64,000 bases of DNA from the human T2T-CHM13v2.0 reference genome, Homo sapiens: the NCBI RefSeq assembly GCF_009914755.1, contig NC_060930.1; one strand, 5' to 3'. Positions 53,011 through 57,283 of the stretch are shown here, in pieces. Made by a program: the position numbers and the translations under genes. Numbering within the stretch: the first letter of the stretch is position 1; each line of letters opens with the position of its first letter. The notes under the pieces are model-generated. The model was not told the origin of the DNA. It made no database searches and saw only the letters and a list, made by a program, of their open reading frames with translations.

Positions 53011-53479
53011 TGTATTAGTTTTCTGTGACTATTAAAACAAACGATCACAGATTTGGGGTAATTTATTCTATCACAGTTCTGGAGGCAAAAGTCAGAAATC
53101 AGAGTCACAAGGCCAAATCAAGGCTGTGCTTCCTCTAGAAGCTTCAGGAGAGTTTATATCTTACCTCTTCCAGCTTCTGGTAGCTACCGGAATTTCTTGT
53201 CTTATGGTCCCATCACTCCAGTATGTGCTTCCATAGTCACATTGCCATCTCCTCTTTTATCTGTTATAAAATCTTCCTCTGCCTCAGTCTTATGAGGATA
53301 CATGTGATTGTATTCAGGGCCCACACTAGATAATCTCAGATTATCTCCTTATCTCAAGATCCTTAACTTGATCACATTGGTAAAGACCTGTTTATTTTTT
53401 GTCATATAAAGTAGTGCTCATAGGTGCTAGGAATTAGAATGCAGATATCTTTTGGGAACCCATTATTCAGCCCACTACA
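53011..53479 (-). mobile_element. MLT1C/D MaLR solo LTR
   Basis: TGTATTAGTTT...ATTCAGCCCACTACA; exact TSD CAAGT (53006-53010 / 53480-53484). Confidence 0.92.
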
Positions 53480-55275
53480 CAAGTGTCACCAGGATGTTTA
53501 ATGGATAAATAACATGATCAAAATTACTAACAACAGTGCTTTTCAGGAATTAGCAACATTCTTTACTAAGAACATAGAAAATCTAAGGTGGCAAATTTGG
53601 GGGCAGTTTGGCATATGAACTAGAATGTTAAAAAATACAATTAAAAATGAAACTTGCAGACTTTGTATAGATTTGAGGTTGTCTGGAATCGTATATTTAA
53701 ATTTTTATAAATTTTAGATAAGGCATTTGTTGTCTGTCCACAACTTTGAATGTTTTCCAAAATCTAGAGCTTGTCTGCTAGGTCACTATATTCTGTTCTG
53801 AGGATATTATTTGAGATGAGAAGGTTAAAATGGATATTTTTTCCTCATCAATACATAGATTAAATATATATTGGCATGTTCTGGAAGCTATAAAAAACAC
53901 TGCACCAAAATTGTGAGTTTTTTCTCACATTAAGGAACTTATATCTTTCATCATTATAAAAGATTTTGTTTTGACCTAGAATTGATCCTTCAGTTTGTAT
54001 ATTGATCCCAGGATCCCTTTGTCAGATAATCTGACCCAGAATCTGATATAGAGAGGCAATTACTGAGTTCCCATGTAAAACTACAGCTCTCTTCCTGATT
54101 CTACCTGTTCTGTATCACATCTCTTCTCCATTACATATTATCCAGTTCTGAGGCCTTATGATTTGGTTCTTATAGTCATGGATTGCTCTCCTACAAACTA
54201 GTGGCTCGCTTCTTTATTGTCTGTCTGCAGATATTCTTGGGCAGTGACTGCTTCCCACCCTTTAACTTACCTGCCTCTCCAAGGTGTCTTGAAATATTAT
54301 GTTTCTTTCTTAATTTTAATCCTCAATTATGGCAAAGTAAAAAATAATAATGTGAAGAAACTCAAACACAATGGTCAATAGCTTGAAAAGTCTTATTTCT
54401 CCTTAGTTGAATGATGAAAATGAATTGTTGAGGCTATAGTGTTCTAGTTATTGGCTTGTTAAATGTTGAATACAAGAAACAGTGATTTTACTAGCCTGTG
54501 GTTTAGAAAAGACTAATCCACAGACATTTATTAATTCATTCAACAAACAAGAGTATTTCATTTTCCAGGACATTTGCTAGGTGATGGGGGAAAATTACAA
54601 ACAAAAACAGACTTGCTTTGTGCCCTCTTGGAGCTTACATGCTAGTATGGAGGGTCAGATATTAAGTAGTCACAAAACATTACACATTACAATTTTGAGT
54701 GATAAAAGACCTATTCCAGAAAACGTTAGTGCTTGTAATTGGTTACTCAGCCTAGTTGAAGAGAAGCATTCAGGGAGAGTTTCCCTGAAGAGGCAATATC
54801 TGTATGGGAATTTGAGACATGAATGGAAATTAGCAAAATGGAGCGAGTGGAGAGCATTCCATACCACGGGCATATGCGCAAACATCCTGTGGTGAGAGAG
54901 GGCATGGCATATCAAAGGAACTGTGAGATTGGAATAATTAGAAGTAGCACAGTAAGATTGGAAGGGTAGGTAAGAATCAGATTATATTAGAGTTTATATG
55001 CCTTTTAAAAATTTAGTCTTGCCAGAGAGTCATAGGAAACTATTGAATACTTTCAGCAGAAGTATCATGTGATCAGATTTGTTTTATTTTGATTAATCAT
55101 TTGATTAATTGGATTGTTCATTATTTTACTCTAAAGTAAAGTAAAATACTCTGCAATGAAGTGTTTGAATACACAGGTAGCTCCAGTTACAATGTTTGCG
55201 CCTCATGCTGGTACGCAGTATGCCCACAGCCATAAACCTGTTTTCATTGTTACTGTTATTTTCTAATTTCTCAGA

Positions 55276-55473
55276 GTTTTATTTATTTTTAAATGTATTT
55301 TTATTTTATTTTATTGTGGTAATAACACTTAATATCAGATCTACCCTCTTAACAAACTTTTAAGTGTATAAGACGTTGTTGACTATTGGTATGGTGTTGT
55401 ACAGCAGATTTCTCTAGAGCTTATTCAGCTTACTTAACTGAAACTTTTTGCCCATTGATTAGTATCTTCCCAT
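55276..55473 (-). mobile_element. L1MA (MA8/9-like) 3' end
   Basis: T-rich tail, ATTGTGGTAA.AACACTTAA..AGATCTACCCTCTTAACAAA..TTGTACAGCAGAT..GAAACTTT. Confidence 0.85.
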
Positions 55474-55474
55474 G

Positions 55475-55501
55475 TACCTGACGGGGGAGACACCATGATC
55501 A
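55475..55501 (+). pseudogene. U1 snRNA 5' fragment (nt 6-32), 3'-truncated retrocopy
   Basis: TACCTGACGGGGGAGACACCATGATCA vs U1 TACCTGGCAGGGGAGATACCATGATCA: 24/27 identical, ungapped. Confidence 0.8.
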
Positions 55502-56871
55502 GATTTATGTTTTAAAAAGGCCACTCTTCTGTGTAGAGACGAGTTTGTAGGAAAGCAAGAATGGCTGTAGGACACCTAGTTAGGAGACTACTGCAAAAAT
55601 AAATATTAAAAAAAATTCACTCTACTCTTCTATATTCTTTGATTTCATGTTTTTCTGGTTTTCTGCATTGTGCCTGGATGAATATGTATTTGTTTAAAGA
55701 ACAACAAGAGATTCATGAATGAATAATTTCAGCTATGGCTTGGTGCAGGAGACTCAGACCAGCTATCCTCTGTGTTTTCAGTGTCTCTGATGTTTGTCAT
55801 TGATACCCATATTATATATCGAGAAACTCAAAAGTTCTATAGCATCATAAAAATACAGAGACATAAATGTTCTAAATACAACAAATCATTCATTGGTGTA
55901 ATAAGGAAAGAAATTACAAAAGTTATAGGAATATAGGGCAGACATCCCATATCTCAAATCCTTGTGGACCAGTAAGTGATTAAGCAAAATTAAAGGTCTG
56001 ATTAAGATGGCAAAGGGTATAGAGATTCCTGAGGTTCTTGGTAATTATGCAATAGAAATTTAATCCAAACTGTCAGGAAATTAGTCTTTGAAGGATAAGA
56101 AGATGATAACTAGGTCAGTTGACAATATGGTATGAATATTTTGTCTGAGCTTAAGAAGAGGTCATTCTAACTGCTTCATTAAGACTCAAATATTTTATTA
56201 AAATAGAGATATTCTAAGAATGTCAAGCTTTAGGAAAAAATCTAGGAATTACAAAAATATATTTTAAGTTGAAAGTGCTTGTTGCCCATCCAGGAACTGA
56301 ATTGATAGCCACAAATATATACAGTTACTATTTCTGCTGAAAATTATCTTAAATTTACCACAAAATATATAACATATTGCAAGCTAAAACAGAAGCTTTG
56401 AAGTTTTTCTATGTTTGCTGTTTGAGTTGGATTCCATGGCATGTGGGTGTCTCAGTCAGAAGTATTGTTAGTGCGTCCTCCTGCTTAATGAAGGGGAGAG
56501 TGGAGGCAGCAAAGATTTGCCTTGATTGGCTTCTATCAGAACTAATTTTTTCCTATTTTTTAATTTTCAGAGATCAGATCCAGAGCCTGACAAGTTTATT
56601 TACTTGGAGAAGCAGATTCTAGGTTCTAGAAAAGAAGGCTGAAAATACAACTTTAAGGGAAAGGATAATCTGATGACTAATTCTCATTTATCAAAAAGCC
56701 ACTTTGCCTTAGATCTATCTGTATAAACTCCATGCTTCACAGTAAAATCCTTCTAACTTTATTGAAAAAAGGGGGCCACCTAGCAAATAACACCAAGAGT
56801 ATTATTTCTGGGGTTCAGTTAACCCAAAGACAATTATTTATCTTACTAAAATCCATTTCTAGGTCTATAAA

Positions 56872-57120
56872 CCTATTGTGTAGTACATAAATACATAGGC
56901 TTTAGTCCTAGATAGTTGGAGCAGATCCTGGCTATACCAATTGTTAGCCATAAGCCACGATCAATGTACTTAACTTCTCCAAGTTTCTCATCTTTAGAAT
57001 GGGGATAATAGTGCTATTTACTTTATATAATTATTGGGAGGAGGAAATGGCTTCATAAATATAAAGAACTTAGCATAGTGAATGCCACATAATAAACCCT
57101 AAATAATTGTAGCAACTGCT
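56872..57120 (+). mobile_element. MIR, near full length
   Basis: GATCCTGGCT..ACTTAACTTCTC..AGTTTCTCATCTT.AGAATGGGGATAATAG..ACTTAGCATAGTG. Confidence 0.8.
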
Positions 57121-57283
57121 TTTATTAGGAAGTCTTCCAGATCTTTGTAATCTTTGTCCAGTTGTCATCACAGGCAGAAATAAAAGAATAAAAAATTTCC
57201 ACTGAGAATTACGCTAATTATATAAACATAATGCATATTCTATGAAACTAACATTCTCAGAGGTAATTATACAATTTTAGGAG

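What the first reader, a model, noticed from the sequence alone, without database searches (positions are those of the whole stretch)
55070..55513. One TSD-bounded insertion joins an L1 3' end to an inverted U1 snRNA 5' fragment: twin priming across two different RNAs?
Seen: an L2 is split by a ~410-bp insert flanked by TGATCAGATTT--GTTTT (55070-55085) and TGATCAGATTTATGTTTT|AA (55496-55513; TTTT/AA is the L1 endonuclease site). Inside lie unique DNA, a minus-strand L1MA 3' end with tail, and at the L1's 5' junction U1 nt 6-32 on the opposite strand (24/27 identity). The U1 copy ends exactly at TGATCA, which is also the first 6 nt of the TSD. Established: classical snRNA/L1 chimeras (U6/L1) are co-oriented, and twin priming makes inverted 5' segments when the second-strand 3' overhang anneals internally to RNA. 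Inference: the first nick primed on the L1-derived poly(A) RNA, while the second-strand end (…TCTGATCA-3') annealed to U1 UGAUCA and copied U1 toward its 5' end. The two cDNAs then joined, possibly via the shared AT at 55472-55473. Read on the minus strand, the U1 piece forms a donor-like CAG|GTACAT.
Basis: partly seen in the sequence, partly recalled or inferred. Interest (0 to 1): 0.8.

Follow-up and report, generated by a model that had tools for sequence, protein, structure and literature searches.

The report
Inverted U1 piece on L1 insertion
An old L1 insertion carries a 21-27 base piece of U1 snRNA in the opposite orientation at its 5' end; this is a real example of "twin priming" on two RNAs, but that class of insertion was already described in 2015.

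Summary
Window 55475-55501 (+) matches U1 nt 6-32 at 24/27 without gaps. It abuts the 5' end of a minus-strand L1 3' fragment. One duplication (55070-55085 / 55496-55513) ending at TTTT/AA encloses the whole insert, which sits in an old dispersed repeat.

I tested three ordinary explanations for the U1-like bases: a longer duplication of the host repeat, continuation of the L1, and chance. All three failed. The geometry fits second-strand priming on U1:
- the endonuclease site is right only in the L1 orientation;
- the U1 copy starts at a 6-nt TGATCA shared with the duplication;
- five of those six bases lie in the loop of U1 stem-loop I.

The mechanism is not new. Doucet et al. 2015 described inverted, 3'-truncated U1/L1, U2/L1, U5/L1 and U6/L1 chimeras and proposed this same twin-priming model. 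A 2026 catalogue repeats it. This locus is absent from that catalogue's U1 list, and it would have failed Doucet's identity filter. It is therefore a new member of a known kind.

- The "unique DNA" has a chr10 relative and ends at a poly(A)-site-like AGTAAA. It is probably a 3' transduction.
- A 98%-identical copy of the locus lies at C6:62.1 Mb.

I also found an uncatalogued sister case on C13 with the same U1 nt-32 boundary.

The parts
54957..55069 (.).
   Evidence: Profile of 25 genomic copies hits 54957-55081, profile positions 4-133, 26.9 bits, E 2e-9
55070..55085 (.). Left copy of the target-site duplication (TGATCAGATTT--GTTTT; lacks AT relative to the right copy and to the repeat family)
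   Evidence: Direct repeat D1. Family copies carry this string once and with the AT. The paralog has the same 2-base gap
55086..55109 (-). Decayed A-rich tail of the inserted RNA (reads A-rich on the minus strand; contains a 2x TTTGATTAAT repeat)
   Evidence: Lies between the duplication and the start of chr10 homology at 55110 (D3, 10). Calling it a poly(A) remnant is inference
55110..55288 (-). AGTAAA (minus strand, 55130-55125) lies 15 nt before its end at 55110. Probable 3' transduction
   Evidence: Related only to C10:116.72 Mb apart from self and paralog (78% over 113 nt; 145/198 = 73% with gaps). The chr10 copy keeps AGTAAA and diverges exactly at the segment's end. No L1 lies beside it on chr10
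55289..55299 (-). Short A-rich linker between the L1 3' end and the low-copy segment (borders approximate)
   Evidence: Alignment to the L1 family consensus decays here, and the alignment to chr10 is low-complexity here
55300..55474 (-). 5'-truncated L1 3' end (3' UTR end with AATAAA-type terminus)
   Evidence: 38 related L1 copies in the genome. 143/159 identical (10.1% diverged) to the consensus of 28 of them. None of the 38 aligns beyond query 32 (window 55482); 18 stop at query 41 (window 55473)
55475..55501 (+). U1 snRNA nt 6-32, inverted relative to the L1. Bases 55475-55495 (nt 6-26) are unique to the insert; 55496-55501 (TGATCA, nt 27-32) are shared with the duplication
   Evidence: 24/27 ungapped. 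18/21 outside the duplication, against a mean of 6.8 and a maximum of 13 in 25 host-repeat copies. 0/100 window shuffles. Paralog differences imply 25/27 in the common ancestor
55496..55513 (.). Right copy of the target-site duplication (TGATCAGATTTATGTTTT), followed by AA: the TTTT/AA L1 endonuclease site on the + strand
   Evidence: The 25-mer spanning it has 110 genomic matches against 0 for the control, so it is one continuous piece of the host repeat
55514..55595 (.). Right part of the host repeat
   Evidence: Profile hit to 55595 (profile position 222), 50.2 bits, E 1.5e-16. With random filler in place of the U1 piece the hit starts at profile 116-120 = window 55492-55496

Best explanation
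I read this as one L1-mediated insertion into an old repeat, about as old as its L1 family (roughly 10% divergence).

Proposed sequence of events:
1. L1 endonuclease nicked the + strand at TTTT/AA.
2. The T-rich end primed reverse transcription on a polyadenylated L1 read-through RNA, made of the L1 3' end plus about 180-200 nt of downstream sequence ending at an AGTAAA poly(A) site.
3. The second strand was cut 18 nt away. Its 3' end (...TCTGATCA-3') paired with UGAUCA (nt 27-32) of a U1 snRNA, mostly in the loop of stem-loop I.
4. That end was extended toward the U1 5' end, to about nt 6.
5. The two cDNAs were joined at 55472-55475.

The product reads, on the + strand: duplication, tail, transduced segment, inverted L1 3' end, U1 nt 6-32 whose last six bases are the start of the second duplication copy. 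A later segmental duplication copied the whole locus to C6:62.1 Mb.

Shown here: the parts, their orientations, the duplication, the endonuclease site, the U1 identity and the microhomology. Inferred: the order of events, RNA (not DNA) as the U1 template, and the 3'-transduction origin of the low-copy segment.
For: U1 identity:
- 24/27 ungapped; 105 genomic matches at <=3 mismatches against 0 for the reversed control.
- All 60 other matches examined are genuine U1 copies, and none is a host-repeat look-alike.
- U1 divergence (3/27, 11%) fits the L1's 10.1%.

Single event:
- The host-repeat profile hits overlap in profile coordinates at the break.
- Family copies carry the duplicated string once.
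- The A-rich tail abuts the left duplication copy and TTTT/AA follows the right copy.

Twin-priming geometry:
- U1 is inverted and sits at the L1 5' end.
- The site in the U1 orientation would be ...ATCA/CATG, which is not an endonuclease site.
- The 6-nt TGATCA is shared with the duplication.
- Rfam's consensus structure puts U1 nt 28-37 in the stem-loop I loop.

Precedent:
- Doucet 2015 describes the same class and model, including snRNA/target complementarity and loop truncation.
- The published chr8 antisense U1/L1PA3 shows the same order in L079.
- A further clean case on C13 has a 14-nt perfect duplication, a T9 tail, an inverted L1 3' end and U1 ending at nt 32.
Against: - No orthologous empty site could be examined, so all-or-none presence of the three parts is not shown. 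The paralog carries everything.
- The duplication alone is statistically weak, and its two copies differ by a 2-base gap.
- The host-repeat consensus happens to resemble U1 nt 12-32. The repeat profile therefore aligns into the piece from 55481. Only about 7 positions separate U1 from the repeat consensus there.
- The U1 copy stops at nt 6, not nt 1.
- Nothing distinguishes priming on U1 RNA from capture of a U1 cDNA.
- In the C13 sister case, three extra bases separate U1 nt 32 from the duplication. There the microhomology is absent, which weakens microhomology as the general cause of the nt-32 boundary.
- No source L1 lies next to the chr10 relative.
Confidence: 0.7

Rival explanations
1. 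Same single insertion, but the U1 piece was not primed on U1 RNA by the second strand. Either the first-strand reverse transcriptase switched onto an antisense U1 template (for example a U1 cDNA), or a U1-derived DNA fragment was captured as filler during end joining of the 5' junction, with TGATCA serving only as joining microhomology.
For: The final sequence is the same as under twin priming, so fit equally well. In the C13 sister case three extra bases lie between U1 nt 32 and the duplication, as in filler-type junctions. U1 5' fragments ending in loop I are common retro-copied species (18 of 60), so such cDNAs must have existed.
Against: It needs an extra intermediate (a free U1 cDNA or an antisense U1 transcript). 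The published reading of this class is twin priming. The copy starts exactly where a target 3' end can pair with an exposed loop.
Confidence: 0.12
2. Two separate events: first a stand-alone 3'-truncated U1 pseudogene, then an L1 insertion beside it that removed U1 nt 1-5.
For: Stand-alone short U1 5' fragments ending at nt 32-41 with their own duplications are common. Of the 18 short fragments among 60 hits, 16 show no L1 beside them in my limited test, and at least 10 of the 18 show flanking repeats by eye. Doucet section 8 describes this class.
Against: Only one duplication exists, and it encloses L1 and U1 together. The inserted RNA's tail abuts that duplication's left copy, and TTTT/AA fits the L1 orientation only. 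A second L1 event would need its own duplication and would have to land exactly between the first duplication copy and U1 nt 6.
Confidence: 0.05
3. The piece is not U1 at all. It is either a longer (about 32-nt) duplication of host-repeat sequence meeting an L1 that runs a few bases further, or continuation of the L1, or random filler. On this view the U1 likeness is coincidence helped by the repeat's own likeness to U1.
For: The repeat profile aligns from 55481. The family consensus shares a 9-mer and the ...CATGATCA with U1. By my hand alignment, the ancestral piece differs from the repeat consensus at 2 positions plus 1 gap over 55481-55501, against 2 mismatches to U1. The L1 family consensus also shares short words with inverted U1.
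Against: With one scoring scheme, the piece scores 15 against U1. It scores 2 against its own left flank (55% of 2000 shuffles do as well), 0-4 against 25 other repeat copies, at most 5 against 28 L1 copies, and 2 against the L1 consensus. A true U1 put in its place is aligned by the profile just the same (52.1 against 50.2 bits; random filler 44.6-46.6). None of the 60 other genomic U1 27-mer matches examined is a repeat look-alike. TACCTG (55475-55480) is explained by U1 only.
Confidence: 0.05
4. The inserted RNA came from a source locus where an inverted U1 fragment already lay next to the L1 end. The insert would then be an ordinary 5'-truncated retrocopy that happens to begin in that fragment.
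For: The insert is already composite (L1 end plus low-copy segment), so its template was not a plain L1 RNA.
Against: The genome search with the junction found only the locus itself and its paralog covering the U1 part. The other 38 hits are L1 only. The chr10 relative has neither L1 nor U1 beside it.
Confidence: 0.05

Closest known systems
Inverted snRNA/L1 chimeras attributed to twin priming (Doucet et al. 2015, Mol Biol Evol, PMC4476161; their Group IV 'twin': one U1/L1, one U2/L1, four U5 with L1 or SVA, one U6/L1)
   Same: 3'-truncated snRNA 5' segment, opposite orientation to a 5'-truncated L1, one duplication around both, endonuclease site right only in the L1 orientation, snRNA/target complementarity at the junction, truncation in a single-stranded loop (section 6 read in full).
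   Different: The piece here is shorter (21-27 nt) and older (89% identity). It fails their filters of >=90% identity, >25 nt and default BLAST (section 13). The insert also carries a non-L1 3' segment. Their Fig. 1B and Table S1 could not be read (figure not held, supplement is a PDF), so I cannot prove this locus is absent from their list.
Antisense U1:8-49 / L1PA3 chimera at hg38 chr8:69222286-69222710 (Table S2, U1 sheet, 'Comparative genomics reveals LINE-1 recombination with diverse RNAs', Cell Genomics 2026, PMC13174262)
   Same: Same order, rc(L1) then U1 then flank, seen in my locus L079, which I take to be this entry by chromosome and position.
   Different: That case is young (L1PA3), its U1 is copied from nt 1 and reaches about nt 45-49, and its U1 27-mer is identical to the gene.
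Antisense 5S rRNA/L1 and tRNA-half/L1 chimeras (same 2026 paper)
   Same: A short 5' segment of a structured small RNA, ending in a loop, antisense to the L1, ascribed to twin priming (passages; 5S sheet).
   Different: Different RNAs. The authors raise RNase-cut fragments as templates, which is not shown for U1.
Classical U6/L1 chimeras (template switch or RtcB ligation; Buzdin, Garcia-Perez, Moldovan, as cited)
   Same: An snRNA joined to the 5' end of a truncated L1 within one duplication.
   Different: In those the U6 is full length and co-oriented. Here the snRNA is a fragment and inverted.
[quoted passage not shown]
   Same: The second-strand 3' end primes internally on RNA through short complementarity, giving an inverted 5' segment.
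   Different: There both cDNAs copy the same L1 RNA. Here the second template is U1.
Stand-alone 3'-truncated U1 pseudogenes (Doucet section 8; Denison and Weiner classes, as cited there)
   Same: U1 is entered in the stem-loop I loop region. 18 of 60 surveyed hits end at nt 32-45.
   Different: Those start at U1 nt 1, have their own duplication directly around U1 and no L1. Here nt 1-5 are missing and the duplication encloses an L1.
L1 3' transduction
   Same: L1 3' end, short A-rich linker, non-L1 sequence ending at a poly(A)-signal-like hexamer, second tail, all inside one duplication.
   Different: No source L1 lies next to the only relative of the segment (chr10). A template switch from a polyadenylated transcript onto L1 RNA is not excluded.

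Membership tests
Inverted snRNA/L1 twin-priming chimera (Doucet 2015) | snRNA segment is 3'-truncated | tested here: met
   U1 homology ends at nt 32 of 164. The next 20 bases match U1 at 8/20 and continue as host repeat.
Inverted snRNA/L1 twin-priming chimera (Doucet 2015) | snRNA lies at the 5' end of a 5'-truncated L1, in the opposite orientation | tested here: met
   L1 on the minus strand ends at about 55474; U1 on the plus strand starts at 55475.
Inverted snRNA/L1 twin-priming chimera (Doucet 2015) | One target-site duplication encloses both parts | tested here: met
   Repeat 55070-55085 / 55496-55513. The host-repeat profile hits overlap in profile coordinates at the break. The repeat alone is not significant.
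Inverted snRNA/L1 twin-priming chimera (Doucet 2015) | Endonuclease consensus fits the L1 orientation, not the snRNA orientation | tested here: met
   TTTT/AA on the + strand after the right duplication copy. In the U1 orientation the site would be ATCA/CATG (read).
Inverted snRNA/L1 twin-priming chimera (Doucet 2015) | Bases shared by the snRNA and the insertion site at the junction | tested here: met
   TGATCA is both U1 nt 27-32 and the first 6 bases of the duplication.
Inverted snRNA/L1 twin-priming chimera (Doucet 2015) | Truncation falls in a single-stranded segment of the snRNA | tested here: met
   The Rfam U1 consensus structure puts nt 28-37 in the stem-loop I loop. The thermodynamic fold of U1 alone did not reproduce the canonical structure.
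Inverted snRNA/L1 twin-priming chimera (Doucet 2015) | Single event: all-or-none presence at orthologous loci | not testable with these tools
   No other mammalian genome is held. The only paralog (C6:62.1 Mb) carries the whole insert.
Classical co-oriented U6/L1-type template-switch chimera | snRNA in the same orientation as the L1 (and usually full length) | tested here: not met
   U1 on the + strand, L1 on the minus strand; only nt 6-32 present.
Stand-alone 3'-truncated U1 pseudogene | U1 from nt 1, with its own duplication directly flanking it | tested here: not met
   1 of 5 bases before the piece match U1 nt 1-5, against 5/5 in 13 of the 18 short fragments (4/5 in four, 2/5 in one). The duplication encloses the L1.
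L1 3' transduction | L1 3' end followed by non-L1 sequence, a poly(A) signal and a second tail inside the duplication | tested here: met
   AGTAAA lies 15 nt before the end of chr10 homology, followed by a 24-nt A-rich stretch.
L1 3' transduction | A source locus with an L1 immediately upstream of the transduced sequence | tested here: inconclusive
   The only relative (chr10) has no L1 there. It could be an empty allele or a paralog of the source.

The most novel reading that the evidence does not exclude
Very short (<30 nt) inverted U1 pieces at L1 5' junctions may form a recurrent class that catalogues systematically miss. Two independent events, this one and the one on C13, share the U1 nt-32 boundary. 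One of them has no target microhomology. This hints that the template was a discrete U1 5' fragment cut in the stem-loop I loop, analogous to the tRNA halves and 5S fragments proposed in 2026, rather than intact U1 entered by chance pairing. If so, L1 5' junctions would record which snRNA fragments were present in germline nuclei.
Probability: 0.25. Interest if true: 0.45.

Novelty: new member of a known kind. Interest (0 to 1): 0.25.

Why it matters
The locus adds an old, tripartite example (U1 piece, L1 end, transduced segment) to a small published class. That class holds one U1/L1 among seven twin-priming chimeras in Doucet 2015, and one antisense U1 row in the 2026 catalogue.

It also shows that screens relying on RepeatMasker or on >=90% BLAST identity cannot see snRNA pieces of 20-27 nt, so the frequency of twin priming on foreign RNAs is probably underestimated. 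A quick survey here turned up a second uncatalogued case.

There is a practical caution as well. The host repeat's consensus and the L1 3' UTR both contain short words shared with U1. Profile alignments can therefore mislead at such junctions.

No gene or function is affected as far as the annotation given shows.

Tried and rejected
1. Rfam scan of 54000-56500 at E<=10 gave no U1 hit. The piece is too short for the covariance model, so this is uninformative.
2. Word-based genome search with either flank found only the locus itself and its paralog. A sensitive local BLAST of the flanks against held DNA gave one useful old copy. The pattern search then supplied enough copies.
3. Long-duplication rival: tested and rejected.
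4. L1-continuation rival: tested and rejected.
5. U1 alone against the host-repeat profile gave no hit. This was uninformative, so I did the in-place swap test instead.
6. The thermodynamic fold of U1 did not give the canonical cloverleaf. I used Rfam's consensus structure instead.
7. The statistical weight of the direct repeat alone is not significant.
8. The paralog at C6:62.1 Mb cannot serve as an empty site, because it carries the insert.
9. The chr10 locus has no L1 beside the homologous segment, so it is not confirmed as the source of the low-copy segment.
11. Doucet's per-locus table is in a PDF that cannot be read here. Phrase searches in the 2026 supplements failed across cell borders, so I read the U1 sheet directly. 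The other sheets and files of that paper were not read in full.
Full report
**What is there**

Reading 54600-56000 and aligning 55440-55530 to a U1 gene from the same genome (L004:1501-1664, found with Rfam U1 at 175 bits) gives window 55475-55501 (+) = U1 nt 6-32. The match is 24/27, ungapped, and all three differences are transitions. The U1 27-mer at up to 3 mismatches occurs once in the window, and 0 of 100 shuffles gave a match. Genome-wide it has 105 matches against 0 for the reversed control.

Immediately to the left, on the minus strand, lies an L1 3' end. A genome search with the minus strand of 55313-55513 returned the locus, one paralog and 38 other L1 copies at 77-81% identity. None of the 38 aligns beyond query position 32, and 18 start exactly at query 41 (window 55473). 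Against the majority consensus of 28 of these copies the L1 body is 143/159 identical (10.1% diverged; the other copies range 8.8-17.9%).

The direct repeat 55070-55085 / 55496-55513 is the top repeat in the region. It has 11 exact bases, a 2-base gap in the left copy, then GTTTT, and the right copy is followed by AA.

**Is it one insertion into one older repeat?**

Word-based searches with the flanks found only the locus and its paralog. The 25-mer across the right junction has 110 genomic matches at up to 3 mismatches against 0 for the control. It is therefore a conserved, continuous stretch of a dispersed family.

A profile of 25 of these copies (three segmental duplicates dropped from 28) hits the window twice. 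One hit is 54957-55081 (profile 4-133, E 2e-9) and the other is 55481-55595 (profile 106-222, E 1.5e-16). The family carries the duplicated string once and with the AT, so the left copy lost AT later.

An 11-base repeat is not rare by itself: 16.7% of 1000 shuffles have one. What counts is that the repeat sits at both edges of the interruption and ends at TTTT/AA on the strand that fits the L1's orientation.

**A rival from my own profile**

The right-hand profile hit begins inside the 'U1' piece, because the family consensus there happens to resemble U1 nt 12-32. A longer duplication of host sequence therefore had to be tested, and I ran three tests.

- Local flank. The 21 bases outside the duplication score 15 against U1. 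They score 2 against the locus's own left flank, and 55% of 2000 shuffles do as well. They score 0-4 against the same region of 25 other copies.
- Swap control. Putting true U1 nt 6-26 in that place gives the same profile extension (52.1 against 50.2 bits; random filler 44.6-46.6, with the hit then starting at profile 116-120). The extension says nothing against U1.
- Family U1-likeness. Ungapped identity to U1 of the 21 bases before the TGATCA-equivalent is 6.8 on average (maximum 13, n=25), against 18 here.

L1 continuation scores at most 5 in 28 copies and 2 against their consensus.

For the genome-wide check I used the 100 listed matches to the U1 27-mer (of 105 in all). Two are this locus and its paralog, and 37 lie in full-length U1 hits. 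I fetched 60 of the remaining 61. One listed match and five unlisted matches were not examined. None of the 60 continues as host repeat; all are U1 copies.

The paralog (983/1004 identical over 1 kb, and 98.1-98.6% over at least 4 kb) differs from the window at two sites of the 27-mer. At each site one of the two copies agrees with U1, so their common ancestor was 25/27.

**The rest of the insert**

The 'unique DNA' has one relative outside the locus and its paralog. That relative is at C10:116.72 Mb (78% over 113 nt; 145/198 with gaps).

Read on the minus strand, homology to chr10 ends at window 55110, 15 nt after an AGTAAA that both loci keep. In the window a 24-nt A-rich stretch follows (55109-55086), then the duplication. 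That is the look of a polyadenylated RNA end.

At the other side, chr10 homology is solid to about 55288 and fades into A/T-rich sequence. The L1 family consensus, with its AATAAA-type end, runs to about 55300.

The inserted RNA therefore read: L1 3' end, short A-rich linker, about 180-200 nt of non-L1 sequence, tail. This is the signature of a 3' transduction. The chr10 locus has no L1 beside the segment, so it may be an empty allele or a paralog of the source. A template switch from a polyadenylated transcript onto L1 RNA is not excluded.

**Mechanism**

In the L1's sense (the minus strand) the order is: duplication ending ...TGATCA, inverted U1 from nt 26 down to nt 6, L1 3' end, transduced segment, tail, duplication.

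This is what second-strand priming predicts. After the first nick at TTTT/AA and reverse transcription from the poly(A) end, the second strand is cut 18 nt away. Its 3' end ...TGATCA pairs with UGAUCA of U1 and is extended toward the U1 5' end.

Rfam's consensus structure puts U1 nt 28-37 in the loop of stem-loop I, so five of the six paired bases are exposed. ViennaRNA's fold of U1 alone was not canonical and was not used.

The joint with the L1 cDNA lies within 55472-55475. Base 55475 fits both L1 and U1, and base 55474 fits neither. The U1 divergence (11%, or 7% for the inferred ancestor) matches the L1's 10%.

**What is known**

Doucet et al. [quoted passage not shown] These have duplications, endonuclease sites that fit only the L1 orientation, snRNA/target complementarity and loop truncations. 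The authors propose the twin-priming model for them (7 of 30 snRNA/retrotransposon associations).

Their screen needed at least 90% identity, more than 25 nt and default BLAST. This piece is 88.9% identical and its longest exact run is 10 bases, so it should have been missed. Their per-locus table is in a PDF I could not read.

[quoted passage not shown] Its U1 sheet has four rows: three duplicated sense copies at hg38 chr6:32.5 Mb and one antisense copy at chr8:69.22 Mb (U1:8-49 with L1PA3). This locus is not among them. The catalogue relies on RepeatMasker's U1 annotation.

**Survey by-products**

Of the 60 fetched U1 hits, 18 are short 5' fragments whose U1 alignment ends at nt 32-45. At least 10 of the 18 show, by eye, their own flanking direct repeat. 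These are the known stand-alone 3'-truncated class.

I compared the flanks of the 18 with my 28 L1 loci. These loci cover only about the last 1.5 kb of an older L1, so the count is a lower bound. Two of the 18 abut antisense L1:

- L079, which I take to be the published chr8 case.
- L129 on C13:105.94 Mb.

Fetching 1.3 kb around L129 shows a 14-nt perfect duplication (TGAGGAAGAATCTT), T9, about 290 nt of antisense young L1 3' end, U1 from about nt 9-13 to nt 32, three extra bases, then the second duplication copy followed by AAAG. This is a second case absent from the U1 sheet, with the same U1 boundary but no microhomology.

**Verdict**

It is a new member of a kind already in print, so interest is modest. 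The open point is whether nt 32 marks a preferred pairing site or the end of a discrete U1 fragment.

Noticed in passing
window 53279-57261 and C6:62106336-62110319 (L009, L013, L043, L045, L047): At least 4 kb around the finding is duplicated at 98.1-98.6% identity, in the same orientation, about 4.1 Mb away on the same chromosome. Given the hub's coordinates this looks pericentromeric. The duplication is younger than the insertion.
   Followed up: partly
L136 (C13:105942200-105943500), reverse strand: A second inverted U1/L1 chimera that is not in the 2026 catalogue's U1 sheet. It has a 14-nt perfect duplication, a T9 tail, about 290 nt of young L1 3' end, U1 from about nt 9-13 to nt 32, and 3 extra bases before the duplication.
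   Followed up: partly
L076-L135 (60 loci of 147 nt): 18 of 60 U1 27-mer hits are short 5' fragments ending at U1 nt 32-45, that is, in or just past the stem-loop I loop. Most carry their own flanking repeats that begin with A-rich bases overlapping U1 nt 33-37.
   Followed up: partly
window 55481-55501 against the host-repeat profile, positions 106-126: The old host repeat's consensus resembles U1 nt 12-32 by chance: a shared 9-mer plus ...CATGATCA. The L1 3' UTR consensus also shares short words with inverted U1. Both can mislead alignments at such junctions.
   Followed up: yes
L011 1501-1687 (C10:116722549-116722735): This is the only relative of the insert's non-L1 segment. It keeps AGTAAA and diverges from the window exactly 15 nt after it, as at a poly(A) site. 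What transcript ends there is unknown.
   Followed up: no
window 55088-55109: TTTGATTAAT occurs twice, 12 nt apart, inside the decayed tail. This looks like a small tandem expansion of tail sequence.
   Followed up: no
window about 55375, against L009 about 1790: There is a 3-base difference (ATT) inside the L1 between the window and its paralog. The L1 family consensus carries three bases there, so the window copy probably lost them.
   Followed up: no
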